From positions 1-62,580 of the IMG/VR virus record IMGVR_UViG_3300025759_000093: a stretch of 62,580 nucleotides of DNA; one strand, written 5' to 3'. Every line of letters starts with the position of its first letter. The first letter of the stretch is position 1. The position numbers and the translations under genes are program-made. Under the pieces are notes generated by a model that was given only the letters and a program-made list of their open reading frames with translations, did not search any database and was not told the origin of the DNA. The DNA is from a virus (lineage: Duplodnaviria > Caudoviricetes). Shown one piece after another: positions 1,962 through 58,986 of the stretch.

Positions 1962-1967
1962 ATAATT

Positions 1968-7828: not shown

Positions 7829-7987
7829 CTACTTTATGTTACCACCACGTTTTCTACACTTAGCTATATAACCACTAGCATACGCAGATGGAAACACATC
7901 GTATTTAGCTTTAGCTTTTTTATAACAAGCATCTTTTAAAGCTGCGGGTGAATCGTATTTATTAAAAGGTGTTTTACATTTTCTCAT
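7829..7987 (-). CDS. Small basic late protein (52 aa), not in the ORF track
   Basis: MRKCKTPFNKYDSPAALKDACYKKAKAKYDVFPSAYASGYIAKCRKRGGNIK; coupled to the giant gene's stop. Confidence 0.7.
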   Translation of the reverse strand: MRKCKTPFNKYDSPAALKDACYKKAKAKYDVFPSAYASGYIAKCRKRGGNIK

Positions 7988-10900
7988 TTTCTTCTTGTTT
8001 TTGATCTTCTATTACTTGTTCTAAAACTAGATCTTCTGCTTTTACCTCTAGAACTTTGTTTCTTTTCAGATTTTAATTGCCAATCTGGCCATCCTAATAT
8101 CATCGCTACACTTTCCCACCACTCTTTTTCTTCTTCAAAAGCTCCTGTAAAGTTGTCATACTTTAACAAAGCTCTATCAAGAGGTATGTTTGTAGTTGCT
8201 GAAACTACTTTAGCTCCTGCTAAATAAGCTGGGTTATCAATAGCAAAACCTTTATCAAGCATTTCTTGTCTACGTTTTTTACTATCAAACTGATAAGCAG
8301 CACCTCTAATTTTAGATATTTTACTACTTATAGGTGGTGAAAACTGAAGCAGCTTCCAAGTAGCATCGACATATTCTGGTCTAGATCTTTTAGATCTTTC
8401 GTATATATCTAATAATAAATTCTTAATAACAGAGGCTGAAGCTCCGCCTATGCCTAAACCTCTCAACATAGAGTCAGACATACCATTCATAGTTCTATAT
8501 ATTTTTTTGTCATCTTCGTCGTCGTCTCCGTCACCTGCCCCAATAGCAAATAAAGCATTTTGTAAAGAGTTAAATATTAAGTTTTGAACAAACCCATAAT
8601 AAGCTATTTTACTTACATTAGTTTTCCAGTCTCCTCTGCCTGCTATTAAATCTTGTATAGATCTTTTTTGTATACGAGCATACTGCATAGGTGTATTAGC
8701 AAACATTAATATTAACCTTCCATAATCACTAGCTTGTTGTTGTGATATTTTATCAGGTCTACTTGATTGTTGAGATTCTTCTGATATTTCTTTCCACTCT
8801 TGTAATGCTTGTTCAGTAGCTTGCTTTTCATTAAGTCCACTGTTTTCCATTAAATCATTTATTCTATTACGATAATAAGTAGCACCACCAGCAGCTATAG
8901 CAAAGCTATCAGCAAACTGAGTAGGCGCATAACCTTTTTCCATTATATAAGCTATTGCACCTTTAGCTCTATTTTTAGCAGTCTTTGCAGCATCAGCTAT
9001 TTCAGATTCAGTTACATTTATTCTTAAACCTTGTCTTCTATCTTTTAGATAGTCAGAGTTCATTAACGTCATAAAGTCTTTCCAATACTGAGGTTGGTTG
9101 GCAAATGCAGCACCAGCTTTTAAAGGATTATTAAAATTCCAATTAACATAGTTTATAGCAGATATAGTTTGAAGTACTGCAGATCTTGTATTTAAAAACA
9201 TTATAGCAGCATTAGATCCATTAATGTAGTCTAATATTCTATTGCTAAGTCTAGTTCCTTCTGATGATCTGTTCTTACCAGTCTTAATACGTTTAATCAT
9301 GTTCTCCAGCGCATCTCTATATTTTCTTCCATACATAGCTTCTAGCTTATTTAAATTAGCCTCACTATATATTTTATCAATTCTTTGATTAAAGTCTTCG
9401 TAATACTTATATCTCTTAGTAGTATTAAGAAGCTGTTGTATATCAGTGCTTAATGTTCCAGCAGTCCAACCATTACTAGGATTAGACCAACCATCTCCTT
9501 TAGTTATTTTTAAAAGCTCTTGAGCAAACTCTATTAACTGAGGGTCATTTTCAATAATCTCAGTCATTTCTTTTAAGTCTGACGCATCTATTCCAGGTAT
9601 ATTAGTTATGCCTGTTGAATACCATAAATAAACTCTCAAGGCTTGTTCCTTAGTAAAACCTCCAATGCTTGTAGATTTATTTAAATCTTTAGGTATATTT
9701 AAATCTTTCTTAAGTTTCTTAAAATCATTTATCAACTGTAGTCTATCAGCCCTCAAATCGCCATCAGCTTTTGCTAAAGGATCTAGTAAATGTTTTTTGT
9801 ACCATGACATTTGTAAATTACCTAATGGTCCTTTAGCTAGGGTAGGATATATTAAACCTACTAAATCTTCAGCTGAATAAGGAATAAAGAATTTAAAGCT
9901 ATCTTTATCTTTACCAAGAAGTCTACCTTTTTCTTTAGATATTTCCTTCTTAAACATAGGATCTTTCTTCATAGTTATTAGCTGATCAAACTCTTGATCT
10001 AACCCTTGTGAAAACTTTAACTTAGCTTGTTGTACTCTAGACTTAACGTCTAATACACTCATGGCATCTTGAACAGCTTTAACATTTTGTAAAGCATCAT
10101 CAGCAAAGTAAAAGTCGTTGTATCCTTCAGCCGCTTTATCTACTAGCCAGTTGGCTTTTGCTTCACCAGTAGAATTACCTAAACCTATTATATTTTCTTT
10201 TTTAAATTCTAAACCTTCAGACTTTAAAAATTCATATATAGCTTCTTGAGATAGTGGTGACCTAGCTGTTAAAACAAATAGATCTTCATTACCTCTAGCA
10301 TCTTTTATTTTTTTAGCTAAATTAAATAGTGGACCTCGCTTGCCATCTCTTACAATATCAAAATCTGTAAAGTCCATTACAGCGCCTTGTTCAACTAGTT
10401 GAGATCCTTGCTCTGCAAATTGCTCAGCTGTAAGTTCACCCTCTGTTCCATCTGGCTTTGTCCAAAATACTAAACTGTTACTTTGAGCTAGTGTATCATC
10501 AAAATCAAATACTCTAATTTTCTTTATTGGTTGATCTAACTTATTTGCTAACCTTAACGCTTCATCTACACCAGCAGCTTTACTTAAAATATCTTCAGAA
10601 GTCATATCGTTAGATACGTTTAAAACTTTTGAATAGCTTAAGTCAGTAACATTTACACCTTTACTAGCTTTTAAACCTGGAGCTGTTTTCAAAAACTCAT
10701 TTAACCTTTGTTTAGCAACCTTTTGTGATATATCTCCATTTAATATTTGATATAGTAATTCTTGTTGCTTGGATATAACAGATGGTGTTATTTGATTTTC
10801 AGCTACATTAATACCATTGTTTTCAGCTACAGATTTGCCATTGCTCTCTATGAGGATATTAGGATCTACACCTTTATGGATCTTACCGTTTTCGTCTTCT

Positions 10901-13900
10901 CTAACTTGGCTATTTACATTTGGATTAAAGTATCTTATCCATATAGACTTAGTCCCCATTAAAATGTCATAAGCAAACTCTACAGGAGCATTAGCTGTAT
11001 AATTAAAAGGCTTACCGTCTACACCAATACCTTTTAACATTAGATCATTAACATATGGTAATAAACCTTGAAAGTAATTATTTAAAGCACCATCAACATA
11101 TAGATCGTAGTTACCTTGTAACATCCTGTTGAATAAAAACTTGCCTAAATCACTAGCCGGTTGAGTATGTTCTTCAACTGGTTTTAAACCTGTATAATTA
11201 GTAAACATTATAGGCGAAAATGTTCTCATCATGTGACCTTGGTAGGAGCTGGTAGAAGAAAGCATAGCTGCTACAAAAGGAGCATTACTAATATCATCTT
11301 GTATTAACTTATTTAAAGCGTCTAATACTTGTTTAAATCCTTTTTCTTTATCCTTCTGTTGCTGTTCAAAATCTTTCGTACCAAACTTTTCATTAAGCTT
11401 TACATAGCTCATACGTTTTAAACCTGGTATTATTTTACTAGCAAATTTTATTCCGTCTTCTTGTATTCTATCTAAAAACGCAGCAACTTGTTTAGCATTT
11501 AAAAAAGCAAAGTTACCACCATAATCTCTTTCACCAGTTTTATTACCGTCTAGATCTTTAACAGATACTGTTTTACCAGTAAAGGTTCCAGCTGAATTAA
11601 TTGTAAAAAATTCTTTAGGTACTAATGGTGCTAATACATTAGCTAACCATAACCTGTAGGCTTCTCTACCTTCAAAGCTTTTCATGTTGATTGGATCTAG
11701 TCCATTAGCTTTTAATATTTGATTCCAATTTTTTTGCTCTGCAAGAAGTTGTTCTCCAGTGCTAGCAGTAAATAGTTTTCTAGCTTTATCTATTTTTCTC
11801 TGTTGTGCTTTAGTCATTTTGACTCCTTTAGAAAACATCAACTCTGCTTTACCTTCAGATAACTTACTAGGAACTGGCAAGCCTTTATCTTGTAATGCCT
11901 CTCTAACCTCTTGATTTGTAAGCATACGTTCTGTTTGAGAAACTAAAGCTTTTATTCTAGCGCTAGTATTTCTATCTGCTAAGTTCATTTCACCAGCTGG
12001 TGTTATTCCAAATACTTCTTTAAACAAAGCAGGACTTATATTTTTATTCTTTTCAAAAGCAGATAAACCGGCTTTACTACCAGTCTTAGACATTTTAACT
12101 CTATCAGTCTTAGTATAGAAGTTATCTAATAATACTTTTTGTACACCAGTTGAAGTACCTCCAGGCGTTGATCCTTCAGGTAACATAGTAATTAAAGCTT
12201 CCGCATTTTTATTTATAAACTGCTGAGCATTTCTTACATCGTCTTTAGTTAAGTTTCCAGGTTTTGGTTTTATACCAAACATTTCTTGCACTTCTTGTAG
12301 GGCTATATTTTTTAAAGATTTAAAATCTAAATCTGCAATAGGCAGATTATCTACCTCAGCTCTAACTTTTTTAACAGCTTGTTCAACATCACCACTTAAT
12401 CTGCTCTTAAGTTTAATAGCTCTTTTAGGTTGTACAACAGGAGTATCATCTGCTTCTTCAACAGCTGCTAATCCTACTTGCTCTGTAACATCGTCAGTAA
12501 ACTCTTCACCTAAAACTCTTTTCGATGCTTCAATAGCTCTTGAAGGTAGAAACTTATTTATGTAAGCTGCTAAAGGTACGCCTGACTCTGGATCATAAGC
12601 TCTTATTAAATCTAATATACCACGCTCACCAGTTTCTATTTCATCAGTAAGTAATTGCCTATCAAAACCAGGAGCTTCACTTCTACGTTGTACTATTTTA
12701 TTTGTAATAGGTTTGAACTGTTCTATAATATCAAAAGCTGCAGCCTCACCTTGTTCGTCATATAATCTCTGAACCTCTTCACTAGGTCCTTTAGAAAGCT
12801 TACCATCAGATTCATCTTCTGGTGGAGCAGCTTGTAAATTAAAATCTTGTACGGAACTTTGAAAACTTTTTATATAGTTAAATACATCATCTCCAGTTTT
12901 TAGTGGAATTAAAAAACCAGTCTTAGGATTAAATTTATTAGCTAAGTTTTTAAGCATATATTTTAAACCTGATATTTTGCTAAAATCATATTTACTTAAA
13001 ACTCCTGTAGCAACCATATCTCCAAAAAGGTTTAACACTTCTTCAACATCTACACCTTGGTTTTTAACAAAGTCGTCATATTGCTCTTGAGTTATTTCTT
13101 GATTACTTAATTGAGTTTGCAACTCTCTTATAGTAGATGTATAAGCTTGTTTTCTATTTAAATAATTATTATAATCTTCTTGGGATATTTTGCCAGTTTC
13201 TTTGTTTATTTCTAATTGTTTTTCAGCTTGTTCTAAAGCTAACTGAGCAGACTCAACAACAACTCCATCTTTAACTATACCAGCTTTTCTATTTTCTATA
13301 TGAAATAGTTCATGCATAGGAGCAACAGCAGACATCGTCGCAATAAATCTATCTGAAGTTTGACCTATATTTCTAGCAATATTATCTCTAAATACTATTA
13401 TGTCTTGATCAATAAATGTACCGTTTGAATTTTTACCTCTAGCTTCTATTAATTGCTCTGCTCTATCTCCATAAAGTTCTCTTAGTTCTTCGACTGTTGT
13501 TTGGTCATTAACTTCTGTATACTTATTACCGTTTAACTCTTGTGTTACACCTACTATATTATTATAAAACTCAAACAACCCTTGGTTATAAGCGGCCATC
13601 GCAGGATCAAAAGCATCTTTTTGATCTTGAGCAGCTTTTGTTTTTCTAGTATTTAAAAGCTTTTCTATTTGCGTATCTACAGATTTATATTGATTAATAA
13701 ACTGTTGCTTTTGTTTTTTAATAGCTTTGCTTTCAGGATCTGCTCTACCACCTAGCTCTATTAGGTTATTTATATATTCTTTTCTTTGACTTATTAAATC
13801 AAATAATTCTATTTGTTGTGGCTCACTTAAAGCACTAAGCTTTTCTACGTTTTCTATATTTCTAAAAGCTGCTTGTTGTAATATTAAATCTTGTTCTGCT

Positions 13901-16377
13901 TTTAATATTTTCTTTTCTTTTTTAGATCTTTTAGTACCGTCGTTTAGAGCTGTTTCTATTTCTATTAATCTATCAAAGCTAGCTTTTTCAACTTTATAAT
14001 CATTTTTAGTTCTAACATTGTCCCCTAACATAGCGTACAAATTGCTACCAACACTAGGTCCTTGTATAGCTAAACTAGTTAAACCAACATTAAAAGCAAA
14101 CTCAGCATCTATACCATCTAGTATAGATTTATTTTCACCTAGTATATATATATCTGAAAGGTTATTACCTATTTGAGCCGCAGTTTCTTCAGCTATTTCA
14201 ACACCTACATTAATTCCTAAGTTTAAACCTTGATACATAGCTTTTTTAAACATAGTAGATCCTACAGGTGCTGCTATTCTGTTTAAGTTTTTCATATAGT
14301 TTAACGTACCTAGACGTTCACTGTACATGTCTACAGCTCCAGAAACTAATTGAGATCCTGCTTTTTGAAGTATGTTAAGATCTTTGACTCTATTAAGCTC
14401 TTCTATTTGATTTTTAGTTTCAGCTATTTCAAAAGGACTTAATAAACCAGAGTCTAACTTTTTTTCTAGTTCTACTATAGCTTTAGGCGCGTTACGTTGT
14501 GCTATATTTATTTCAGAACCTTTTAAACCGTAGCTCATATTAAAAAATATACCTTGAGCAATTTTACTAGCTCTAGCTTGAGCTAAATTAGCTTTAGCTT
14601 TTAGCTTAAATCTTTCAGGTCCAGAAGCTTTATTAATAGCTTTTTTACTAGGACTAGCCATCTTACCTCCAAATCTAGTCATAAGCACTGTGGCAATACT
14701 AGGCATACCTTCTGCAAAGCTTTGACTAACATATCCACTTAAAGCTCCAGCGTCCCAAGCATCACTCATTGAAGGCTTAGGCGCCATTGCTACGGCCATT
14801 TCTTGTTGTAAGCTCTCGTTGTAATCTAAAGATACGCCTTCTACTTTATTTAAAAAAGTAGATAAAGCTGTTGCATCTTCTTCACCTATAGTCTTGTCTA
14901 TAACCTCTCCTACCATTCCTAGTGTAGTTCCAACTGTGGCTGATGCAGCACCTAAAAATGATTGCTCCATACTTAAAATAGCTTTATCTAAAGAAGAAAA
15001 GTTTTTAGTAGCAAGTTCTAAACTTAAAGATACATCTCCTAGTTCGTTAGAGTCTGCTAGTAAAGAGTCACGCTCTTTGTTCCAAGCTATAATATCTTCA
15101 GCTAATTTTTCTCTTTTATCTAATAAACCACTAGATTTGTACTCATCAATAACACCGTTGTAAGATGTTAGTAAATCGTTATATTCTTTTTTAATAGCTT
15201 CAGGAGAATCATTGCTAATTCCATTCTTATCCATTACATCTAGCTGTTTTTGTATTTCTTCAGCTTGACTATTTAATTCTAAGAATTGTTCGTTATTATC
15301 TAGCTCATCTTGTTGCTCTTGTATAGACTTCATTTTATTAGAAATATCACTAGATCTAAGTTGAATATTTTTAGCTTGTAAATCCATTAAGCTAGGATTG
15401 TTAGACAAATCCATTACATCTTTAAAATCTAAACCTCCTTTAACTTGGTCAGCTAGCAAAGCGGTTAGCTTATTTCTATCTGTTTGAGTTAAGTCTTTAT
15501 TAGCATGATAGAAAGCATTAAGCTTATCTGACTTAACTTTGTTTAGTGTTTGAGTTTTTAATTGATCAGATGCTTTATCTATTACACTATCGCTTATTTC
15601 TCCAGTTTCTTTGTAATGCTTTACTTCTTGATAAACCTGGTCAGACATCCAGCTAGGCTTTTCATCATCTATAAATAATCTATCCACAGCGTTAGTGCCT
15701 ACCATTTTATTAAGTCTCTCCATTGGAGTTGGAGCTCCTTCTAATTCTACCGTTTCAAAACCAGACATAGGTTTATTTAAATCTTCTTCTATAAAATTAG
15801 CTAATAAAGTTTTCTTGTAATCTTCATTAGACTCATCTACATTAGATAAGGTTTTTCTATACTCTTCAACTAAAGGTTTTAACTTAGCAGCAGTCTCTGG
15901 TTCTCTAAATTCAAACTGATCTACTTGACTTAGTTTGTCATACTCATCTTGATTATGTTTTATTTCTGCAGCTATTAAAGGATTTTCTAAATCTTGTTGT
16001 ATTTCGTTTATATTATAAACAGGTTTAACAACTTGATCTGCAACCATGTTTATTTCTTCAGGTGGTAAAAAACCATTTTCTTCATCTTTATTATCTATAG
16101 CTTCAAACATAGCCTGAGCTAGATCCATATCTGGTTCTGGTAATTTATCACCAGCAGCTGAGTTGAGAAGATCTTCTTTATCAGGAACTATATTAAATAA
16201 ATCTTCCATCATTTGTTCTGAAGATGGAACATTATAATATTCAGACAAACCTTCTCTAACTTTTTCTAATACGTCAGGGTTTTGAATATCTTCTACAAAC
16301 TTTTCAAAATCTGGTAAGTTAAAATGCTTAACAGCTTTATCGTATAAAGATCTTAGTCGTTGTTCGTTTGGACTCAT
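7984..16377 (-). CDS. Giant (2797 aa) putative virion ejection/polyvalent protein with HExxH, sigma-70 r2-like and HAD domains
   Basis: Located after the tail and small ejection genes; largely helical. HELFH at ~aa 1022, sigma region-2-like segment at ~aa 1212-1287, HAD motif DFDDT at ~aa 1958. Confidence 0.8.
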   Translation of the reverse strand: MSPNEQRLRSLYDKAVKHFNLPDFEKFVEDIQNPDVLEKVREGLSEYYNVPSSEQMMEDLFNIVPDKEDLLNSAAGDKLPEPDMDLAQAMFEAIDNKDEENGFLPPEEINMVADQVVKPVYNINEIQQDLENPLIAAEIKHNQDEYDKLSQVDQFEFREPETAAKLKPLVEEYRKTLSNVDESNEDYKKTLLANFIEEDLNKPMSGFETVELEGAPTPMERLNKMVGTNAVDRLFIDDEKPSWMSDQVYQEVKHYKETGEISDSVIDKASDQLKTQTLNKVKSDKLNAFYHANKDLTQTDRNKLTALLADQVKGGLDFKDVMDLSNNPSLMDLQAKNIQLRSSDISNKMKSIQEQQDELDNNEQFLELNSQAEEIQKQLDVMDKNGISNDSPEAIKKEYNDLLTSYNGVIDEYKSSGLLDKREKLAEDIIAWNKERDSLLADSNELGDVSLSLELATKNFSSLDKAILSMEQSFLGAASATVGTTLGMVGEVIDKTIGEEDATALSTFLNKVEGVSLDYNESLQQEMAVAMAPKPSMSDAWDAGALSGYVSQSFAEGMPSIATVLMTRFGGKMASPSKKAINKASGPERFKLKAKANLAQARASKIAQGIFFNMSYGLKGSEINIAQRNAPKAIVELEKKLDSGLLSPFEIAETKNQIEELNRVKDLNILQKAGSQLVSGAVDMYSERLGTLNYMKNLNRIAAPVGSTMFKKAMYQGLNLGINVGVEIAEETAAQIGNNLSDIYILGENKSILDGIDAEFAFNVGLTSLAIQGPSVGSNLYAMLGDNVRTKNDYKVEKASFDRLIEIETALNDGTKRSKKEKKILKAEQDLILQQAAFRNIENVEKLSALSEPQQIELFDLISQRKEYINNLIELGGRADPESKAIKKQKQQFINQYKSVDTQIEKLLNTRKTKAAQDQKDAFDPAMAAYNQGLFEFYNNIVGVTQELNGNKYTEVNDQTTVEELRELYGDRAEQLIEARGKNSNGTFIDQDIIVFRDNIARNIGQTSDRFIATMSAVAPMHELFHIENRKAGIVKDGVVVESAQLALEQAEKQLEINKETGKISQEDYNNYLNRKQAYTSTIRELQTQLSNQEITQEQYDDFVKNQGVDVEEVLNLFGDMVATGVLSKYDFSKISGLKYMLKNLANKFNPKTGFLIPLKTGDDVFNYIKSFQSSVQDFNLQAAPPEDESDGKLSKGPSEEVQRLYDEQGEAAAFDIIEQFKPITNKIVQRRSEAPGFDRQLLTDEIETGERGILDLIRAYDPESGVPLAAYINKFLPSRAIEASKRVLGEEFTDDVTEQVGLAAVEEADDTPVVQPKRAIKLKSRLSGDVEQAVKKVRAEVDNLPIADLDFKSLKNIALQEVQEMFGIKPKPGNLTKDDVRNAQQFINKNAEALITMLPEGSTPGGTSTGVQKVLLDNFYTKTDRVKMSKTGSKAGLSAFEKNKNISPALFKEVFGITPAGEMNLADRNTSARIKALVSQTERMLTNQEVREALQDKGLPVPSKLSEGKAELMFSKGVKMTKAQQRKIDKARKLFTASTGEQLLAEQKNWNQILKANGLDPINMKSFEGREAYRLWLANVLAPLVPKEFFTINSAGTFTGKTVSVKDLDGNKTGERDYGGNFAFLNAKQVAAFLDRIQEDGIKFASKIIPGLKRMSYVKLNEKFGTKDFEQQQKDKEKGFKQVLDALNKLIQDDISNAPFVAAMLSSTSSYQGHMMRTFSPIMFTNYTGLKPVEEHTQPASDLGKFLFNRMLQGNYDLYVDGALNNYFQGLLPYVNDLMLKGIGVDGKPFNYTANAPVEFAYDILMGTKSIWIRYFNPNVNSQVREDENGKIHKGVDPNILIESNGKSVAENNGINVAENQITPSVISKQQELLYQILNGDISQKVAKQRLNEFLKTAPGLKASKGVNVTDLSYSKVLNVSNDMTSEDILSKAAGVDEALRLANKLDQPIKKIRVFDFDDTLAQSNSLVFWTKPDGTEGELTAEQFAEQGSQLVEQGAVMDFTDFDIVRDGKRGPLFNLAKKIKDARGNEDLFVLTARSPLSQEAIYEFLKSEGLEFKKENIIGLGNSTGEAKANWLVDKAAEGYNDFYFADDALQNVKAVQDAMSVLDVKSRVQQAKLKFSQGLDQEFDQLITMKKDPMFKKEISKEKGRLLGKDKDSFKFFIPYSAEDLVGLIYPTLAKGPLGNLQMSWYKKHLLDPLAKADGDLRADRLQLINDFKKLKKDLNIPKDLNKSTSIGGFTKEQALRVYLWYSTGITNIPGIDASDLKEMTEIIENDPQLIEFAQELLKITKGDGWSNPSNGWTAGTLSTDIQQLLNTTKRYKYYEDFNQRIDKIYSEANLNKLEAMYGRKYRDALENMIKRIKTGKNRSSEGTRLSNRILDYINGSNAAIMFLNTRSAVLQTISAINYVNWNFNNPLKAGAAFANQPQYWKDFMTLMNSDYLKDRRQGLRINVTESEIADAAKTAKNRAKGAIAYIMEKGYAPTQFADSFAIAAGGATYYRNRINDLMENSGLNEKQATEQALQEWKEISEESQQSSRPDKISQQQASDYGRLILMFANTPMQYARIQKRSIQDLIAGRGDWKTNVSKIAYYGFVQNLIFNSLQNALFAIGAGDGDDDEDDKKIYRTMNGMSDSMLRGLGIGGASASVIKNLLLDIYERSKRSRPEYVDATWKLLQFSPPISSKISKIRGAAYQFDSKKRRQEMLDKGFAIDNPAYLAGAKVVSATTNIPLDRALLKYDNFTGAFEEEKEWWESVAMILGWPDWQLKSEKKQSSRGKSRRSSFRTSNRRSKTRRK

Positions 16378-28282: not shown

Positions 28283-28293
28283 AGTGTATGTTT

Positions 28294-52879: not shown

Positions 52880-53100
52880 TTAGAAATATTGGAGTATTGC
52901 ATAGCGCCACCACAATATAATTTTGTGTAAATAAGAAAATGAAATATATAATTGCGGGTCCCCATTGTTTTATATAATTTAATTGTTATATATGACATTT
53001 ATTTAATATATTATTGTGTCAATGTTATATATATATTGTACAAACTAATTACGACTTATGTTGGATAATATAAATGTAAATAAAATATATAAATAAACTA
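52880..53100. other. Very AT-rich non-coding divergence region (possible origin or genome-end region)
   Basis: Strand switch between late and early blocks; imperfect inverted repeat ATATATGACATT/AATGTTATATAT at 52988-53032. Confidence 0.45.
53039..53069 (+). promoter_or_regulatory. Class I (early) promoter motif
   Basis: TACAAACTAATTACGA-N8-GGATAAT. Confidence 0.75.
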
Positions 53101-53103
53101 ACA

Positions 53104-53232
53104 ATGAAAAACTTAATTAACAACATCGAACTAACAATATTAAAATTATCACTCATATCATTTATATCAACAGTAATATATATGATAGTAGAATATGGAA
53201 TTATTAACTACATATCATTCAATGGAATTTAA
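53104..53232 (+). CDS. Small membrane protein (42 aa), first early gene
   Basis: MKNLINNIELTILKLSLISFISTVIYMIVEYGIINYISFNGI; follows a promoter motif. Confidence 0.55.
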   Translation: MKNLINNIELTILKLSLISFISTVIYMIVEYGIINYISFNGI

Positions 53233-53305
53233 TTAATGTAAATTATTGAGATAATATGTGTAACACTTCTCAACTAATTTTAACTAATAAACAAAGTTAC
53301 ACTCT

Positions 53306-53336
53306 TACAAACTAACAACGAACTAAACTGGATAAT
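53306..53336 (+). promoter_or_regulatory. Class I (early) promoter motif
   Basis: TACAAACTAACAACGA-N8-GGATAAT. Confidence 0.72.
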
Positions 53337-53379
53337 AATAATAACTAAACTAAATATAAATAAATAAAATATAATAACT

Positions 53380-53634
53380 ATGAAAACTAATAACTTAACT
53401 ACAAAAAGATTTGTAATCAGAAAATCATTACTCGGAACTAATTCAGTAATTACTTTCACTAACAAAAAAGGCTATAAATTCACTTATGATCATGATGAAA
53501 TTTACTCAACATTTCAAGAAAAGTTTGAAAGTATGCCGTGTTTCCAACAGTACAAATCTTATACAAATAGTAATACTGTTCCAAAATTCTGCAGAGAATT
53601 AAGTGAAATCTTAGATCATCAAGTTTCTGAGTAA
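53380..53634 (+). CDS. Early hypothetical protein
   Basis: 84 aa with its own promoter motif and an A-rich leader. Confidence 0.7.
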   Translation: MKTNNLTTKRFVIRKSLLGTNSVITFTNKKGYKFTYDHDEIYSTFQEKFESMPCFQQYKSYTNSNTVPKFCRELSEILDHQVSE

Positions 53635-53694
53635 TAAAATAAAGTCCAGTTAGTTCTACTCGTTTACTGGTAAATCAAATATGAATGAGTAATA

Positions 53695-53755
53695 TAGCCG
53701 ACGGGTATATAAATACTTGGGAAAGAGGTGAGGTTCGACTCCTCACTCGGTTACA
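53695..53755 (+). ncRNA. tRNA-like element (acceptor stem + one hairpin + T-arm)
   Basis: TAGCCGA/TCGGTTA stem, CGGGTAT-ataa-ATACTTG hairpin, GTGAGG-TTCGACT-CCTCAC T-arm; too short for a canonical tRNA. Confidence 0.5.
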
Positions 53756-53782
53756 AACTAAATACTATCCAAAGTGGATAAT
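53752..53782 (+). promoter_or_regulatory. Class I (early) promoter motif
   Basis: TACAAACTAAATACTA-N8-GGATAAT. Confidence 0.7.
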
Positions 53783-53809
53783 ATAATAAACTAAATAAAA
53801 TTAATAACT

Positions 53810-54010
53810 ATGTATAATGTAAATAATCCTTCAAACTGGTCTTGGTCAAAAGCTTTTGACGAAATGGAAAAGACTGTAAATCAAGCTGAACTTACTCAGC
53901 AATGTATAAATCACGTTCTCAATTATCCCGGAGAAGCTAATGGTGTCTTCATGACATTAAGTAAATCTCAACAAGATGATGTGTATGAACTACTAAATCA
54001 AGTGCTATGA
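53810..54010 (+). CDS. Early hypothetical protein
   Basis: 66 aa following a promoter motif. Confidence 0.65.
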   Translation: MYNVNNPSNWSWSKAFDEMEKTVNQAELTQQCINHVLNYPGEANGVFMTLSKSQQDDVYELLNQVL

Positions 54011-54213
54011 ATAATCTAAATACTACAATAGACAAAATAGCAATGTCAGAATTTGACATGCACTATTATCAACTCGGTGACAATGAGAAACAATGGTGTC
54101 ATGATGAAATGGTGAATAATCCAAAGTGGCTAAAGAAAGATTGGGAAGATCCATTATTTTGTGTAGCTGATAAGTGGAAAGCTGGTTTACCAATATATAA
54201 AACTTATAAATAA
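54007..54213 (+). CDS. Early hypothetical protein
   Basis: 68 aa, ATGA-coupled. Confidence 0.65.
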   Translation: MNNLNTTIDKIAMSEFDMHYYQLGDNEKQWCHDEMVNNPKWLKKDWEDPLFCVADKWKAGLPIYKTYK

Positions 54214-54232
54214 ACAAATAAAAACAAATAAT

Positions 54233-54391
54233 ATGATAGATAACTATGAATTTGAAATATACTATGGTGACATTGAAGAACCACTATATTTAACTAATGA
54301 TAAAAACTATATTTGCGATGAAATGAGAGATTTCATGGAAGAATTAGGAATAATAATGAATGAAGTAATATATAAAGTAGAAAAAATATGA
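54233..54391 (+). CDS. Early acidic hypothetical protein (52 aa)
   Basis: MIDNYEFEIYYGDIEEPL...; coupled to the next ATG. Confidence 0.5.
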   Translation: MIDNYEFEIYYGDIEEPLYLTNDKNYICDEMRDFMEELGIIMNEVIYKVEKI

Positions 54392-54645
54392 ATAAAATAA
54401 TATTAACAATTGGAGTAGCAAGTTCTTTACTAGCTTCTCCTGCAAAAAAAGATGGTACAATAGTAAACTCAGTAGAAAGAAACAAATATCTACTAAGTGA
54501 AGCTATAAACAATATCCAAGATATGAAAGAGTGGATGCAGAGTGATGTAGACAAAGATAATATAATTACAGATTTAGGTGAATATTATATTGAATATCTT
54601 AATGAAACTGAAGATATGTTACTTGAGTTTTCTAATACAAAATAA
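54388..54645 (+). CDS. Early secreted protein
   Basis: MNKIILTIGVASSLLA signal-like start; acidic helical body. Confidence 0.6.
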   Translation: MNKIILTIGVASSLLASPAKKDGTIVNSVERNKYLLSEAINNIQDMKEWMQSDVDKDNIITDLGEYYIEYLNETEDMLLEFSNTK

Positions 54646-54666
54646 ATACGACAACTAATGGATAAT
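54636..54666 (+). promoter_or_regulatory. Class I (early) promoter motif
   Basis: TACAAAATAAATACGA-N8-GGATAAT-N6-ATG (ATG at 54673). Confidence 0.78.
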
Positions 54667-54672
54667 AACAAT

Positions 54673-54921
54673 ATGAAATACATAAACACAGACAACTTAA
54701 CAGCAATCAATTATGGTGACGGTGAAATCAAACTCATGATCTTCAACAAACATAAATCTCCTTATGGTTACTCACCTCGCGACTTAGTTGTCTCACTGTT
54801 CAGTGTTTCAATAAAAGAATTTACGTACAACTATGTACAGTCGGAAGTAGACAAAGTGTATTCTACTTTCAACTATGATGAAATACACGAACTAATAACT
54901 AAAATAAATAACAATGACTAA
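54673..54921 (+). CDS. Early hypothetical protein
   Basis: Start MKYINT chosen from promoter geometry. Confidence 0.6.
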   Translation: MKYINTDNLTAINYGDGEIKLMIFNKHKSPYGYSPRDLVVSLFSVSIKEFTYNYVQSEVDKVYSTFNYDEIHELITKINNND

Positions 54922-55078
54922 AACTCTTAAAAAAATAGCAATATACCTAACAGAGTGGCACATGTTAAAAATATATGCTACCGTAATGACTACAGCTTTC
55001 TTATGTATTTGGATTCCAACTATGTTTATAGCTATCAAAAATGTAATAATGCAAGTAATCTTACCACTATTTAAATAA
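54914..55078 (+). CDS. Early small membrane protein (54 aa)
   Basis: MTKTLKKIAIYLTEWHMLKIYATVMTTAFLCIWIPTMFIAI...; hydrophobic core. Confidence 0.55.
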   Translation: MTKTLKKIAIYLTEWHMLKIYATVMTTAFLCIWIPTMFIAIKNVIMQVILPLFK

Positions 55079-55079
55079 T

Positions 55080-55313
55080 ATGAAACTAACTAACGAAGAA
55101 AAAGACGAAATTACTTGGAGAGTGGTTGACTCACTATATGAAAAACTAGCTAACGAGTTAGAATATGAACTTGAAGATCATAATAACTTTACAGAAACTA
55201 ACGATGAATTTCTAGATTTATTCAATGAAATGACTATAAAAATAGTAAAATATATGAGAAGTGAACTGTTCTCTCCAGGAACAAGTGAAGACTTAGAACT
55301 TTATAAAAGATAA
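55080..55313 (+). CDS. Early acidic hypothetical protein
   Basis: 77 aa, E/D-rich. Confidence 0.65.
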   Translation: MKLTNEEKDEITWRVVDSLYEKLANELEYELEDHNNFTETNDEFLDLFNEMTIKIVKYMRSELFSPGTSEDLELYKR

Positions 55314-55316
55314 AAT

Positions 55317-55487
55317 ATGACAGAACAACAAGCAATTGAAGCAATCGCTAATGATATACAGGATGGTATCTACGGTTGGACACAGAAATGTGGAACAGAG
55401 TGGCAGAAGTGGACATATTCACTAATGCAAGCAACAAAAATATATAATGGTGAACTAATAATAGACTTAGAAAATGGAAGCAATTGA
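55317..55487 (+). CDS. Early hypothetical protein (56 aa)
   Basis: MTEQQAIEAIANDIQDG...; packed between neighbouring ORFs. Confidence 0.55.
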   Translation: MTEQQAIEAIANDIQDGIYGWTQKCGTEWQKWTYSLMQATKIYNGELIIDLENGSN

Positions 55488-55650
55488 TAGATCTCACGAG
55501 TGGGAAGGCGCGTTTGAAGACGCTAAAACTAAAAAAGCAGTAATGTTTCTAATGATAGAAGAAGTTACAACAAGCACTCCTAATGATCAAGAATTAGGCA
55601 AAAGAATAAGAAAAATAATAAATAACTACAAAAGAAATGAAGACAATTAA
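55474..55650 (+). CDS. Early hypothetical protein (58 aa)
   Basis: Contains TPNDQELGKRIRK; overlaps neighbouring ORFs. Confidence 0.55.
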   Translation: MEAIDRSHEWEGAFEDAKTKKAVMFLMIEEVTTSTPNDQELGKRIRKIINNYKRNEDN

Positions 55651-55770
55651 ATTTTACCCAAGTAATAGATCAATAATAAGATTAGACGGCAAAATGTATA
55701 AAGGTTATACAATTGGAAATATACCTGATGATATTCAAGGATGGTTTAACTATAAAGGATTAACGTTTGT

Positions 55771-55801
55771 TACAAATTAAATACGATTACTATTGGATAA
55801 T
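55771..55801 (+). promoter_or_regulatory. Class I (early) promoter motif
   Basis: TACAAATTAAATACGA-N8-GGATAAT-N6-ATG (ATG at 55808). Confidence 0.78.
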
Positions 55802-55807
55802 ATATAC

Positions 55808-56041
55808 ATGAATACAACAACAATACAAACAAAAGCATGTAAATGTGGCAAAGAGCTACATCCAGTAAGAATTAAGTACGGTTATAACACTTGTGTTAGC
55901 TGTAGCAACGTAGAGCGTTATGGTTGCGCTCCAGTTATCAACCATAAAACTGGCAATAGTATACAAATACTTAGTCGTGAAGATGCTATTAAAATAGCAA
56001 AACTAACTAGACGTAAAGGTTATGGTACTATGCTAAGATAA
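55808..56041 (+). CDS. C4 zinc-finger protein, DksA/TraR finger-like
   Basis: CKCGKELHPVRIKYGYNTCVSC. Confidence 0.6.
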   Translation: MNTTTIQTKACKCGKELHPVRIKYGYNTCVSCSNVERYGCAPVINHKTGNSIQILSREDAIKIAKLTRRKGYGTMLR

Positions 56042-56122
56042 CGGGCATGAGTGTGATGCTGTAACTCGACCTAAAAACATACGAGCGTTAACTCGCGAAA
56101 TAGTGCCTTACAATTTAAAATA

Positions 56123-56165
56123 AGGTCAGCTCATACTTAATCGGTATGGGCTTTTCGTGGTATGA
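56123..56165 (+). promoter_or_regulatory. Conserved hairpin leader element, copy 1
   Basis: AGGTCA-GCTCATAC-N7-GTATGGGC-TTTTCGTGGT-ATG; a second copy with a compensatory change is at 58094. Confidence 0.7.
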
Positions 56166-56332
56166 GTAAACAACAACAAACAATTACCAAACAACTACAA
56201 AACTTGTACTCTTGGACACAATTCTATCAAGAAGTTGGTAATAAAGATCAAATAAGAAAGTGTCAAACTCAAATCGCCGAGTTAAAAAAGGCGTATAATC
56301 AATTAAAATCTAATAAAAATGGCAAAAAATAG
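56162..56332 (+). CDS. Early hypothetical protein (56 aa), not in the ORF track
   Basis: MSKQQQTITKQLQNLYSWTQFYQEVG...; its ATG is part of the conserved element. Confidence 0.6.
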   Translation: MSKQQQTITKQLQNLYSWTQFYQEVGNKDQIRKCQTQIAELKKAYNQLKSNKNGKK

Positions 56333-56687
56333 AACGCTAAACGAAATTAGACAATCAAAAGAGTATCAAATAGCTAAACATAATGCAGATTTACAAGCAG
56401 AAGTAGCTAAAAATACTAATAAAAACCCTAATGTAACAACTTCTAATCCTTTTGAACACGAAGAAGTAGATAAAACTGTTGATCAAATTGTAGAAGACTT
56501 ACAACCTGTAATATATGATACTATATTTGAACTAATTTGTAATGAAATGAGTACAAAATATGTATTTGACTCATCAGAATACTTAACTGAAGCAGGTTTA
56601 GAACTATTTGAAGACGAATGGTTCGAGTTTTATCATGAAAATCATGGTAAAATAATGCATAAACTAATGCTTTGCTACAAAACTTAA
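56319..56687 (+). CDS. Early hypothetical protein
   Basis: 122 aa with an acidic C-terminal half. Confidence 0.65.
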   Translation: MAKNRTLNEIRQSKEYQIAKHNADLQAEVAKNTNKNPNVTTSNPFEHEEVDKTVDQIVEDLQPVIYDTIFELICNEMSTKYVFDSSEYLTEAGLELFEDEWFEFYHENHGKIMHKLMLCYKT

Positions 56688-56691
56688 AATA

Positions 56692-56889
56692 ATGAATAAA
56701 TTTAACGGAATGGAGTCGAAACTTATAATCGACGCACTTGACTGCTACGTAACGCAGGTAGAAAAAGATATATTAGAATTAGAAAAAGATGGTAAAAGAT
56801 CTATATTTGCACCAGGTTTTTATACTAATATATCAAAAGAGTTAAAAGACAAAGTAAGATCTATGACTAAAAAACAAATTACAAACTAA
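56692..56889 (+). CDS. Early hypothetical protein
   Basis: 65-aa ORF. Confidence 0.6.
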   Translation: MNKFNGMESKLIIDALDCYVTQVEKDILELEKDGKRSIFAPGFYTNISKELKDKVRSMTKKQITN

Positions 56890-56910
56890 ATACGAACACT
56901 AAAGGATAAT
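56880..56910 (+). promoter_or_regulatory. Class I (early) promoter motif
   Basis: TACAAACTAAATACGA-N8-GGATAAT-N6-ATG (ATG at 56917). Confidence 0.8.
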
Positions 56911-56916
56911 ATAAAC

Positions 56917-57138
56917 ATGTTATACGATAAATTAAAACCACATATCAAAGCCAAGATGAAAGAAAATGCTGAAGAGTATGAATCTGTAAATTGGCTACTT
57001 GATAAACTTAAAAACAAAGACCATTACTCTGACTTAACTATTGAGCAGATAAGATCTATTTGTACATTTGGCGATGTATGGTATTACGATCTTACGCAAA
57101 AAGAGTTAATATGGGGTGATTGGCTAATAAAACAATAA
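56917..57138 (+). CDS. Early hypothetical protein
   Basis: 73 aa, predicted leaderless. Confidence 0.65.
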   Translation: MLYDKLKPHIKAKMKENAEEYESVNWLLDKLKNKDHYSDLTIEQIRSICTFGDVWYYDLTQKELIWGDWLIKQ

Positions 57139-57140
57139 AT

Positions 57141-57491
57141 ATGAACGAAGAACAACTAGCTTTAGATACATTAAAAGCACTAGGTGCTAAAGATACATCA
57201 AGTCCATCTCAAATAAAAAGAGGTACAACTTGCTTTACATTACCGACAGGTGACTGCATATCTGAACATAAAACAGGTTATATTAGAAAAAATATACTAA
57301 ACAAAAATGGTAGTATTTACACCTGTTATCAGCTAAATCCACAATATAAATCCTCTCACAAAGTTATTTCATGGAATGGAAAACTATATGAGTTCGATAC
57401 AAACAAAAGAATGCTGATAAACAATAGAGCTGAAAGGCTAAAAAGACTTGTATTATATACTATTAAGCAAATAAACAAAGCAAATGGATGA
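57141..57491 (+). CDS. Early hypothetical protein
   Basis: Start MNEEQ 2 nt after the upstream stop. Confidence 0.6.
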   Translation: MNEEQLALDTLKALGAKDTSSPSQIKRGTTCFTLPTGDCISEHKTGYIRKNILNKNGSIYTCYQLNPQYKSSHKVISWNGKLYEFDTNKRMLINNRAERLKRLVLYTIKQINKANG

Positions 57492-57578
57492 TGACAAGCG
57501 AGACTTAGCGTTAATACTGTTTGGATTAGCGCTAATACTTTACACAATTTTACTAACTACTAACTTAATTTAACAAAA

Positions 57579-58028
57579 ATGGAATCAAAAGAACCAACAA
57601 ACGAAAAAATAATAGAAGCCGTAAAAAGTTATTATGGCTTAAAAATAGATGAAAATGCTTACGATAATGCAGATATTTATGCTTATGAAGAAAACACTGT
57701 AGACGGTTACTCTGTATATGTAGTAGCTCACGACATGAGAAACGTAAGTATATGCGAAGATGTGTATTATTACGATAGTGATGTACCATCAGCTATTATG
57801 GAGATGATAAGATATTCAAATGGACATTGTACATTATATGCAGATGACTATTTTCTAGATGATATATACTTTGACGATATGTTACTAGAAGAATTTTCAG
57901 AAATAGCAGATAAGATATATGACGAAATTATGAATGAAGACAGTGATTATAACTTTGACATGGCAGAACTGCAATGGCTAAAGGAAGAATTTACTGAATC
58001 AGAAGAAATTAATCAGACTGTTAGTTAG
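57579..58028 (+). CDS. Early highly acidic protein (possible DNA mimic)
   Basis: 149 aa, very D/E/Y-rich. Confidence 0.65.
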   Translation: MESKEPTNEKIIEAVKSYYGLKIDENAYDNADIYAYEENTVDGYSVYVVAHDMRNVSICEDVYYYDSDVPSAIMEMIRYSNGHCTLYADDYFLDDIYFDDMLLEEFSEIADKIYDEIMNEDSDYNFDMAELQWLKEEFTESEEINQTVS

Positions 58029-58093
58029 TTAATAGTAGTTTAGTTTCCACGATAAACTGTCGTCTTAAACACTAAGGGAGTAGATATTAAGAC

Positions 58094-58136
58094 AGGTCAG
58101 CTCGTACTCAAAAGGTACGGGCTTTTCGTGGTATGA
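58094..58136 (+). promoter_or_regulatory. Conserved hairpin leader element, copy 2
   Basis: AGGTCA-GCTCGTAC-N7-GTACGGGC-TTTTCGTGGT-ATG. Confidence 0.7.
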
Positions 58137-58980: not shown

Positions 58981-58986
58981 ATTAAT

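What the first reader, a model, noticed from the sequence alone, without database searches (positions are those of the whole stretch)
12517..12804. Sigma-70 region-2-like domain inside the 2797-aa ejection protein: a possible virion-delivered sigma factor
Seen: EVQRLYDEQGEAAAFDIIEQFKPITNKIVQRR...DRQLLTDEIETGERGILDLIRAYDPESGVPLAAYINKFLPSRAIEASKR (~aa 1200-1287). It follows the sigma region 1.2/2 pattern (A+e.Li..f.Plv.kia.r...DL.qeG..Gl..a+..yDP..G..f..Y....ir..i) and parallels the stand-alone sigma at 61571. Established: N4 and crAss-like phages inject an entire RNA polymerase; no RNAP motif is evident here. Inference: this phage injects a sigma domain that reprograms host core RNAP to the non-host-like class I early promoters, which then express the second sigma for class II promoters. 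No clear region 4 follows, so the adjacent ~230 aa may read the unusual -37/-26 boxes. I do not know a described example of this system.
Basis: partly seen in the sequence, partly recalled or inferred. Interest (0 to 1): 0.92.

Follow-up and report, generated by a model that had tools for sequence, protein, structure and literature searches.

The report
Sigma-like domain inside giant phage protein
A giant protein at the end of a marine phage's particle-building genes contains a strongly conserved stretch predicted to fold like the part of bacterial sigma factors that grips RNA polymerase, so the phage may deliver its own transcription-redirecting module with its DNA, although no experiment shows this yet.

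Summary
The peptide is real. It is aa 1201-1287 of a 2797-aa ORF on the minus strand (7984-16377), which is the last gene of the structural operon of a 62.6-kb, 99%-complete phage genome.

Sequence profiles do not see sigma: Pfam, PDB sequences and a profile search of 1.84 billion proteins found none, and hhalign gave P about 0.06. Two other lines do:
- An AlphaFold model (pLDDT about 90) matches sigma domain 2. The top VIA-align rows are nearly all sigma (Z 8.3-6.5), as are 50 of 50 rows in the second look.
- All 30 ESM-Atlas neighbours are sigma-like clusters (score 0.97).

The domain is the best conserved part (81% mean column identity) of a module shared by at least 1197 giant proteins from uncultured phages. 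Every near-complete relative examined also has one stand-alone sigma and a conserved 31-nt promoter-like motif. Two cultured relatives lack all three.

The 200 aa that follow form a basic domain with no matching solved structure and no clear region 4.

Virion delivery rests on synteny with an MS/MS-verified protein. RNAP binding and sigma activity are inferred. I rate the finding as likely real, novel and untested.

The parts
7984..16377 (-). Giant ORF of 2797 aa, the last gene of the structural (late) operon. It is a multi-domain 'polyvalent' protein that is probably packaged in the virion.
   Evidence: The ORF is. It lies downstream of terminase, portal, virion structural proteins and a tail fibre. 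It is syntenic with phi40:1 gp101, annotated structural from MS/MS, and with elemo gp18. Residues 409-758 resemble gp101 residues 224-537 at 22% identity, E 4e-6.
12496..12792 (-). Sigma-70 region 1.2/2-like domain (aa 1196-1294), acidic with pI 4.7. This is the object of the finding.
   Evidence: AF2 pLDDT is about 86-92. VIA Z is 8.3-6.5 against sigma domain 2. The Atlas gave 30 of 30 sigma-like neighbours. Mean column identity is 81% over 41 phages. pI is.
12418..12495 (-). Acidic linker predicted to be disordered (aa 1295-1320, pI 4.05).
   Evidence: pLDDT is below 50 for model residues 113-135.
11833..12417 (-). Basic domain 2 (aa 1321-1515, pI 9.4), confidently folded and without a known fold. 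Its N-terminal 45 residues align weakly to sigma region 4.
   Evidence: AF2 pLDDT 81.8, pTM 0.81. Best VIA Z 3.8 and best Foldseek E 0.68. Best Atlas score 0.85, hypothetical viral proteins. hhalign against the sigmas of a Flavobacteriaceae MAG gave P 0.012, with reversed controls at 0.18-0.35.
9943..10536 (-). HAD / polynucleotide-kinase-phosphatase-like domain (aa 1948-2145).
   Evidence: phrog_415 E 6e-5. PF11019 E 1.2e-4 and PF12710 HAD E 0.038, both below their cut-offs.
8128..9930 (-). Conserved C-terminal module (aa about 2150-2750) of unknown family, followed by a very basic tail.
   Evidence: It is covered by 108-116 of 120 homologues. There is no Pfam or PHROG hit and no tblastn hit in 50,697 phage records. 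The tail has pI 12.
61571..62320 (+). Stand-alone phage sigma factor (249 aa) at the distal end of the plus-strand early region.
   Evidence: PF04542 24.0-24.2 bits (cut-off 24), PF04545 E 0.043, phrog_351 E 8.8e-18.
53040..58981 (+). Cluster of seven 'class I' motifs, ACAAACTAAATACGA-N8-GGATAATA, starting at 53040, 53307, 53753, 54637, 55772, 56881 and 58951. An eighth lies at 1932-1962. They are inferred early promoters.
   Evidence: There are 8 matches, all on the plus strand, against 0.00 expected. The motif is conserved in 5 of 5 related genomes. An ATG starts 6 nt after GGATAATA at 55808, 56917 and 58987.

Best explanation
Residues about 1196-1294 of the giant ORF are a highly diverged but genuine homologue of sigma-70 regions 1.2 and 2.1-2.4 (domain sigma-2). 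They are embedded in a multi-domain protein that is packaged in the virion and released into the cell with the DNA.

Proposed mechanism, all of it inferred:
1. After ejection, the domain docks on the clamp helices of the beta-prime subunit of the Flavobacteriia host's core RNA polymerase, as sigma-2 domains do.
2. Together with the acidic linker and the basic 195-aa domain that follows, it directs or tethers the polymerase to the phage's conserved tripartite early motifs (ACAAACTAAATACGA-N8-GGATAATA).
3. The GATAAT part of the motif would act as the -10 element.
4. Those promoters express the early plus-strand genes, including the stand-alone sigma at 61571, which then serves later promoters.

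Shown by prediction or computation: the fold, the conservation, and the co-occurrence with the stand-alone sigma and the motif. Inferred: virion delivery (from synteny), core binding, and promoter reading.
For: Fold:
- The AF2 model was built from 29 sequences without templates. Residues 14-110 have pLDDT about 86-92.
- In an all-against-48,161-chain VIA search, 11 of the top 12 rows are sigma factors or sigma fragments: 6pmj_F Z 8.3, rmsd 3.6 over 82 residues; 8b3z_A Z 8.0; 1sig_A Z 7.9. By title, 26 of the 50 rows are sigma or initiation complexes.
- In the second look, 50 of 50 rows are sigma, Z 8.3-6.2.
- The Foldseek PDB and BFVD lists are dominated by sigma factors, though with weak E-values.

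Language-model features: 30 of 30 Atlas neighbours are sigma-like, score 0.97.

Sequence register: hhalign pairs DIIEQFKPITNKIVQRR with the region 2.1 of the stand-alone and host sigmas, and LLTDEIETGERGILDLIRAY with their region 2.2.

Constraint:
- Mean column identity is 81% over 41 phages, against 38% for the next domain.
- The flanks cannot be aligned. Only 8-44 of 120 homologues cover aa 1-1100, while 120 of 120 cover aa 1201-1500.

Distribution:
- 1197 proteins at E<=1e-3.
- 317 representatives at 50% identity, of which 106 of the 150 listed are at least 1500 aa long.
- The domain is internal in 45 of 45 viral loci.

Virion context.

Co-occurrence:
- One stand-alone sigma is present in 5 of 5 near-complete and 4 of 5 partial relatives.
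- The motif is present in 5 of 5.
- Two cultured relatives whose syntenic giant proteins lack the domain have neither.

Precedent: T4 gp55 is a sigma-R2-only factor. It binds the clamp helices through acidic residues and reads a -10-like element (passages of PMC7892883). 7d7d_F matches the model at Z 6.8.
Against: - No sequence-profile method reaches sigma. This covers Pfam at E<=10 on the fragment and on 29 members, six-frame PF04542 searches of the window and of 10 related genomes, which hit only the stand-alone sigmas, and PDB sequences.
- The profile search of 1.84 billion proteins gave a closed family of 317, with no tail the size of the sigma superfamily.
- hhalign gives P about 0.05-0.06 only.
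- The VIA tool itself warns that Z below about 13 for helical bundles can mean just a common arrangement. Cyclin and TFIIB folds appear at Z about 6.
- The model rests on a shallow alignment (hhalign Neff 1.7).
- No sigma-4 was found. In the window's own subgroup, the putative recognition-helix segment of domain 2 is 5 residues shorter than in most relatives.
- Virion presence is not shown for this protein.
- The stand-alone sigma, or the host's own holoenzyme, could read the motifs instead.
- A sigma tethered inside a 2797-aa protein has no precedent.
Confidence: 0.45

Rival explanations
1. The domain is a true sigma-2 homologue and binds host RNAP, but it does not act as a promoter-specificity factor. 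It would act as a decoy that occupies the beta-prime clamp helices and shuts off host sigma-dependent transcription. Alternatively it would anchor RNAP at the DNA entry site, for example to help pull the genome in. The class I motifs would be read by the stand-alone sigma or by the host holoenzyme.
For: The evidence for fold and conservation is the same as above. No sigma-4 was detected. The domain is buried in a 2797-aa protein. A complete stand-alone sigma is always co-encoded: 5 of 5 near-complete relatives and 4 of 5 partial ones.
Against: The region 2.3/2.4-like helix (PLAAYINKFLP.RAIEAS.R) is at least as invariant as the region 2.2-like helix. A pure core-binding decoy would not need that. 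The stand-alone sigma gene lies downstream of class I motifs, so it cannot start its own expression. No pattern of the recalled Bacteroidetes promoter type was enriched: 1 match against 3.1 expected.
Confidence: 0.22
2. The domain is a helical bundle that only resembles sigma-2, by convergence or by a shared helical arrangement. It would have a structural or unrelated role in the virion or ejection apparatus, and its conservation would reflect contacts with other phage parts.
For: All sequence-profile tests are negative or non-significant. Z of about 8 lies within the range the tool reports for unrelated helical models, and cyclin/TFIIB-like folds also score about 6. The alignment behind the model is shallow.
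Against: Sigma rows fill the top of an unbiased search of 48,161 chains and all 50 rows of the second look. The separate language-model search returns only sigma-like clusters. The weak hhalign match falls in the correct register and order. The D-x-I-x-x-G-x-x-G-[IL]-[LM]...[FY]-D signature of region 2.2 is visible in the sequence and invariant across the family.
Confidence: 0.15
3. The giant protein is not packaged. The sigma-like module would act inside the producing cell late in infection, for example in late transcription or shut-off, and its position after the tail genes would be incidental.
For: There is no direct virion evidence for this protein. Similarity to the MS/MS-verified phi40:1 gp101 is weak (22% over about 350 residues of a coiled-coil-rich region, E 4e-6). 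The elemo gp18 giant protein shows no similarity.
Against: Gene order is conserved from terminase to the giant gene in two cultured relatives. In one of them the last giant gene is annotated structural from MS/MS. Neighbouring genes are homologous to virion structural proteins. In the relatives listed, 28 of 120 carry kinase/zeta-like domains and 1 carries a lytic transglycosylase domain. Such multi-domain architecture is typical of injected polyvalent proteins (abstract and passages of PMC5512222).
Confidence: 0.1

Closest known systems
Sigma-70 family domain sigma-2 (regions 1.2, 2.1-2.4; Pfam PF04542), e.g. sigma-28 (6pmj_F), SigE N-terminal domain (8b3z), sigma-70 (1sig, 6ca0_F)
   Same: The predicted fold superposes over 76-90 residues at rmsd 2.6-3.6, Z 7.9-8.3. 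The domain is acidic. A region 2.2-like motif is present in the expected register.
   Different: There is no significant sequence-profile match. The domain sits in the middle of a 2797-aa protein instead of a 170-600-aa factor. No sigma-3 or sigma-4 was recognised. The tryptophan pair of region 2.3 seems to be replaced by K-F; this alignment was made by eye and the sigma-70 numbering is recalled.
Bacteriophage T4 gp55 (late sigma made only of a sigma-R2 homology domain)
   Same: gp55 is a minimal sigma without region 4. It still binds the clamp helices and reads a -10-like element (passages of PMC7892883). 7d7d_F aligns to the model at Z 6.8, rmsd 3.0 over 89 residues. I take chain F to be gp55 and did not check it.
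   Different: gp55 is a free 185-aa protein (length recalled) made during infection. It works with gp33 and the sliding clamp gp45. Nothing here suggests a clamp-binding motif, and this domain is part of a presumed virion protein.
Virion RNA polymerases that are ejected with the DNA (N4 gp50 and relatives; crAss-like phages)
   Same: These are giant proteins of about 3500 residues, packaged in a podovirus and expelled into the cell to start early transcription (abstracts of PMC13434306 and PMC13492108, seen in the listing).
   Different: They are complete polymerases. No polymerase family was detected in this ORF. The host's core enzyme would have to do the catalysis.
Injected 'polyvalent proteins' and T4 Alt (Iyer et al. 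2017, PMC5512222)
   Same: They are large multi-domain proteins delivered with the DNA to jump-start transcription or counter defence. T4 Alt is injected and modifies host RNAP so that it favours phage DNA (passages). This ORF and its relatives combine HAD/PNK-like, kinase/zeta-like and lytic transglycosylase domains.
   Different: The word 'sigma' occurs 0 times in that paper's main text. Its supplementary tables were not available to me. Alt acts enzymatically, whereas here a sigma-like binding domain would act stoichiometrically.
Stand-alone phage sigma factors (window 61571-62320; phiEco32/7-11 type)
   Same: They are phage-encoded specificity subunits for host core RNAP (abstract of PMC8948821). 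The window's own sigma shares the I-x-x-F-x-P-[LI] motif of region 2.1 with the giant protein's domain.
   Different: They are free proteins of about 250 aa with regions 2 and 4, made only after infection starts. Pfam recognises them.
Giant terminal structural proteins of cultured Flavobacteriia podoviruses (Cellulophaga phage phi40:1 gp101; Flavobacterium phage elemo gp18)
   Same: They hold the same position as last gene of a syntenic structural module. gp101 is annotated structural from MS/MS. The portal is 34-40% identical to the window's.
   Different: They have no sigma-like module. Their genomes lack a PF04542 sigma and the class I motif.

Membership tests
Sigma-70 family (region 2, PF04542) | Significant match to the family's sequence profile | tested here: not met
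   There was no sigma family at E<=10 on the fragment or on 29 family members. Six-frame PF04542 searches at E<=10 (window) and E<=1 (10 relatives) hit only the stand-alone sigmas.
Sigma-70 family (region 2, PF04542) | Sigma-2 fold (region 1.2 helix plus the helices of regions 2.1-2.4) | tested here: met
   This is met on a predicted structure only. pLDDT is about 90. VIA Z is 8.3-6.5, with 11 of the top 12 rows sigma, and 50 of 50 rows sigma in the second look.
Sigma-70 family (region 2, PF04542) | Region 2.2 core-binding signature in the right register | tested here: inconclusive
   hhalign places LLTDEIETGERGILDLIRAY on the region 2.2 of phage and Flavobacteriaceae sigmas, but at P 0.05-0.06. 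The columns are invariant or nearly so.
Sigma-70 family (region 2, PF04542) | Region 2.3/2.4 residues for melting and -10 recognition | tested here: inconclusive
   A nearly invariant Tyr (Trp or Phe in a few members) and a Phe lie in a highly conserved helix. Equivalence to sigma-70 Y430/W434 rests on an alignment made by eye.
Sigma-70 family (complete factor) | Region 4 helix-turn-helix (flap binding, -35 recognition) | tested here: inconclusive
   Domain 2 folded alone gave best VIA Z 3.8 and best Foldseek E 0.68, with no sigma-4 row. A weak hhalign match of aa about 1331-1373 to region 4 gave P 0.012.
Sigma-70 family (function) | Binds core RNAP and confers promoter-specific initiation | not testable with these tools
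Biochemistry is needed.
Virion RNA polymerase (N4 gp50-like or crAss-like) | Polymerase catalytic domain | tested here: not met
   There was no polymerase family in Pfam or PHROGs on the whole ORF or on its pieces.
Podovirus internal/ejection (polyvalent) proteins | Encoded in the structural module and present in virions | tested here: inconclusive
   The position is as expected. The syntenic gp101 of phi40:1 is MS/MS-verified, with weak similarity at E 4e-6. There are no proteomics for this phage.
T4 gp55-like minimal sigma | Sigma-R2 domain followed by a helix-loop-helix and a sliding-clamp-binding motif | not tested
   Only the fold match to 7d7d_F was seen (Z 6.8). The other two features were not examined.

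The most novel reading that the evidence does not exclude
An injected sigma. The giant ejection protein of a very abundant clade of uncultured marine Flavobacteriia podoviruses would carry a minimal sigma, made of regions 1.2-2, an acidic linker and a new basic DNA-binding domain. At the moment of DNA entry it would convert host core RNAP into a phage-specific holoenzyme. That holoenzyme would read a 31-nt tripartite early promoter and produce partly leaderless mRNAs. This would be a third route to early transcription, beside host holoenzyme and injected polymerases.
Probability: 0.33. Interest if true: 0.92.

Novelty: new variant of a known kind. Interest (0 to 1): 0.8.

Why it matters
Phages are known to start transcription in two ways. 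They use the host holoenzyme, sometimes after an injected enzyme such as T4 Alt has modified it. Or they inject a whole polymerase, as N4 and crAss-like phages do.

A sigma-like specificity module delivered inside a virion protein would be a third strategy. It would explain how a phage without host-type promoters or its own polymerase expresses its first genes.

The family is large: at least 1197 proteins at 90% clustering and 317 at 50%. It comes from abundant marine phages, so the mechanism would matter ecologically. The domain is also an example of a real sigma relative that profile methods miss.

The hypothesis can be tested directly with a 100-330-aa fragment, Flavobacteriia core RNAP and a defined 40-nt promoter.

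Tried and rejected
Sequence searches that led nowhere:
- Pfam and PHROGs on the whole ORF, fragments and 29 relatives.
- phmmer and hmmsearch against PDB sequences.
- BLASTP of the fragment against the stand-alone sigma, best E 0.29 in another region.
- tblastn of the module and of the C-terminal module against 50,697 phage records, no match.
- The profile of the domain against 1.84 billion representatives, which gave a closed family with no visible sigma tail. Only the best 150 of 317 hits are listed, so the 58 hits between 1e-10 and 1e-3 were not seen.
- hhalign against phage sigmas, 22 sigmas of a Flavobacteriaceae MAG, and combinations. These gave P 0.056-0.34, and the set of MAG sigmas alone gave only P 0.34 on an off-register match.

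Domain 2:
- No fold match and no informative Atlas neighbour.
- I considered calling it a sigma-4. I rejected that as unproven because P is only 0.012 and the putative recognition helix is shortened in the window's own subgroup.

Other readings rejected:
- An RNA polymerase reading, because no polymerase family was found.
- Host-type promoters, because the recalled Bacteroidetes pattern TTTG-N17-21-TAnnTTTG gave 1 match against 3.1 expected. Generic sigma-70-type hexamers are at chance: 53 found against 54.0 expected.

Host: a Flavobacteriaceae MAG holds related phage contigs. Binning is weak evidence. Two other MAG hits, labelled Parvibaculum and Arcobacter, sit on contigs of 9.7 and 2.0 kb and are probably mis-binned.

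Literature: four full-text searches found no description of a virion-delivered sigma. The phrase search returned only reovirus sigma-1 papers.
Full report
OBSERVATION

It maps to 12517-12777. The plus strand there is closed.

CONTEXT

The ORF is the last gene of a minus-strand structural operon:
- terminase, 34706-36931
- portal, 32288-34705
- several 'virion structural protein' families
- a tail fibre, 18806-19396
- a 546-aa protein
- the giant ORF

The portal is 27-47% identical to portals of 87 phage records. These are Flavobacterium (68), Cellulophaga (15), Tenacibaculum (2), Maribacter (1) and one uncultured record.

Flavobacterium phage elemoF and Cellulophaga phage phi40:1 have the same gene order, ending in a giant gene (3694 and 1691 aa). 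The record annotates phi40:1 gp101 as 'structural protein, based on experimental MS/MS'. Residues 409-758 of the window's ORF resemble gp101 residues 224-537 weakly (22% identity, E 4e-6 in a ten-protein search). The neighbouring 1644- and 642-aa proteins are homologous to phi40:1 gp097 and elemo gp22. Virion location is therefore likely, but it is inferred.

IS IT A SIGMA DOMAIN?

Sequence-profile methods say no:
- No sigma family in Pfam at E<=10 on the fragment or on any of 29 relatives.
- Nothing in PDB sequences.
- Six-frame PF04542 searches of the window and of ten related genomes hit only the stand-alone sigmas.
- A profile of 41 copies of the domain, searched against 1.84 billion representatives, found a closed family: 317 at E<=1e-3, 259 at 1e-10 and 191 at 1e-30.
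- Profile-profile comparison with ten phage sigmas gave E 0.05. With sigmas of a Flavobacteriaceae MAG added, P was 0.056-0.058, against 0.18-0.34 for the reversed query. The register is the expected one, with DIIEQFKPITNKIVQRR on region 2.1 and LLTDEIETGERGILDLIRAY on region 2.2, but the score is not significant.

Two other kinds of evidence say yes.

First, the predicted fold:
- An AlphaFold2 model of aa 1185-1530, built from 29 sequences without templates, has pLDDT about 86-92 for residues 14-110.
- A VIA-align search of 48,161 PDB representatives puts sigma domain 2 on top: 6pmj_F Z 8.3 (rmsd 3.6, 82 residues), 8b3z_A Z 8.0, 1sig_A Z 7.9, 8x6g_H Z 7.7.
- Eleven of the first twelve rows are sigma factors. 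The twelfth (3les_A, an engineered scaffold) aligns over the same residue numbers as T. aquaticus sigma-A domain 2 in 3ugo_A, so it is probably built on that domain (my inference).
- By title, 26 of the 50 rows are sigma or initiation complexes. Ten others are cyclin- or TFIIB-like.
- In the second look, 50 of 50 rows are sigma, with Z 8.3-6.2.
- Foldseek E-values are weak (best 0.016), but the PDB and BFVD lists are again dominated by sigma factors.
- The tool warns that Z below about 13 can be a common arrangement for helical proteins. The argument therefore rests on the coherence of the hits, not on Z alone.

Second, language-model features. The ESM-Atlas feature search returns 30 of 30 sigma-like clusters. 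Of these, 21 carry PF04542 and 9 are named 'sigma factor'. The score is 0.97.

I put the probability that this is a true, very diverged sigma-2 homologue at about 0.85.

CONSERVATION AND DISTRIBUTION

- Residues 1150-1560 match 1197 proteins of 1.5-3.8 kaa at E<=1e-3.
- Among the best 120, all cover aa 1201-1500. Only 8-44 cover aa 1-1100. A second conserved block spans aa about 2000-2750.
- The sigma-like piece is the most conserved, at 81% mean column identity over 41 phages. The next domain stands at 38%.
- It is internal in 45 of 45 viral loci, lying 619-1624 codons after the preceding stop.
- Of the 150 listed representatives, 106 are at least 1500 aa long. The 44 shorter ones may be fragments.
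- No cultured phage in 50,697 records has the module.

WHAT FOLLOWS THE DOMAIN

An acidic, disordered linker (aa 1295-1320, pI 4.05) leads to a basic domain (aa 1321-1515, pI 9.4). That domain folds confidently on its own (pLDDT 81.8, pTM 0.81). It matches nothing solved: best Z 3.8 and best Foldseek E 0.68. Its Atlas neighbours are uninformative.

Its first 45 residues align weakly to region 4 of host-type sigmas, at P 0.012 against reversed controls of 0.18-0.35. In the window's subgroup, however, the segment that would be the recognition helix is 5 residues shorter than in most relatives. I treat this as a lead only.

GENOMIC CORRELATES

- Every near-complete related genome examined (5 of 5), and 4 of 5 partial ones, has exactly one stand-alone sigma of about 250 aa.
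- The 31-nt motif ACAAACTAAATACGA-N8-GGATAATA occurs 8 times in the window. All copies are on the plus strand in front of the plus-strand genes. The chance expectation is 0.00.
- It recurs in 5 of 5 related genomes with 12, 7, 4, 1 and 3 copies. The reversed-pattern control gave 0.
- In a Flavobacteriaceae MAG it occurs 15 times. All copies are on phage contigs and none on the main chromosome contig.
- Three ORFs start exactly 6 nt after GGATAATA, at 55808, 56917 and 58987. A fourth in-frame ATG lies at the same distance, at 54673. If GATAAT is a -10 element, transcription would start at the A of the ATG, giving leaderless mRNAs (inference).
- The stand-alone sigma gene lies downstream of these motifs, so it cannot be the factor that first reads them.
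- A recalled Bacteroidetes-type promoter pattern is not enriched: 1 match against 3.1 expected.
- The two cultured relatives without the module have neither a PF04542 sigma nor the motif.

The sample is small. It does not tell which sigma reads which motif.

MECHANISM

The best-supported reading is a sigma-2-like RNAP-binding module delivered with the virion. It recruits or reprograms host core RNAP at the early motifs. T4 gp55 shows that a sigma-R2-only protein can bind the clamp helices through acidic residues and read a -10-like element (PMC7892883, passages). N4 shows that a giant ejected protein can start transcription (abstracts). T4 Alt and the 'polyvalent proteins' show that injected proteins retarget host RNAP (PMC5512222, passages).

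In that paper's main text the word 'sigma' does not occur. Four searches found no description of a virion-delivered sigma. Supplements were closed.

The rival readings are a decoy or anchor that binds RNAP without conferring specificity, a mere structural look-alike, and a non-packaged late protein. They remain open because binding could not be tested.

VERDICT

The sigma-2 assignment is likely. Virion delivery is plausible from synteny. Sigma function is an attractive, testable inference. It would be a new variant of known themes (sigma domains, injected polyvalent proteins, virion-delivered transcription). Interest 0.8.

Noticed in passing
window 1932-1962, 53040-53070, 53307-53337, 53753-53783, 54637-54667, 55772-55802, 56881-56911, 58951-58981 (+): The 31-nt tripartite motif ACAAACTAAATACGA-N8-GGATAATA occurs 8 times against 0 expected. 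It is conserved in 5 of 5 related genomes and absent from two cultured relatives. It is probably the early promoter class.
   Followed up: partly
window 55808, 56917, 58987 (ORF starts) and 54673: An ATG lies exactly 6 nt after GGATAATA. If GATAAT is the -10 element, these mRNAs would be leaderless.
   Followed up: partly
window 21325-21342 (-), 28321-28338 (-), 39375-39392 (-), 62332-62349 (+): A second repeated motif, AACAAGTGATTATAATAT, occurs 4 times against 0.44 expected. It lies before late genes and just after the stand-alone sigma gene, and may be a middle/late promoter class.
   Followed up: partly
window 56123-56168 and 58094-58139 (+): A 46-nt repeat, 87% identical, contains a G+C-rich hairpin followed by a T run. 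It may be a pair of terminators or a small structured RNA within the early region.
   Followed up: no
window 9943-10536 (-), aa 1948-2145 of the giant ORF: This is a HAD/polynucleotide-kinase-phosphatase-like domain with a DFDDT motif. Among the relatives listed, 28 of 120 carry zeta/AAA-kinase Pfam tags, 9 carry PF19067 and 1 carries a lytic transglycosylase tag. The family is a modular cargo protein.
   Followed up: partly
window 7984-8100 (-), C-terminal about 37 residues of the giant ORF: The tail is extremely basic (pI 12, 14 K+R in 37 residues), which may mean nucleic-acid or membrane contact.
   Followed up: no
L061/L095/L097 (G011 contig C7, 117 kb) and contigs C9, C10, C18, C19, C21: One Flavobacteriaceae MAG with a chromosome contig of at least 3.7 Mb carries five related portal genes and three giant ORFs with the sigma-like domain. 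Contig C7 holds two phage-genome equivalents about 63-65 kb apart. This is a host hint from binning only.
   Followed up: partly
L061:2941-3600: A divergent copy of the domain (49% identity) has an insertion of about 12 residues between the region 2.2-like and 2.3-like helices, and Phe in place of the conserved Tyr.
   Followed up: no
window 28282-28337 and 29137-29203 (-): G+C-rich hairpins followed by T runs lie between the capsid-region genes. They look like terminators or attenuators within the late operon.
   Followed up: no
window 60964-61584 (+): A 206-aa protein with a C-terminal helix-turn-helix (weak HTH_7/HTH_23 hits below cut-off) is encoded directly upstream of the stand-alone sigma gene and overlaps it. 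It may be a partner or regulator.
   Followed up: no
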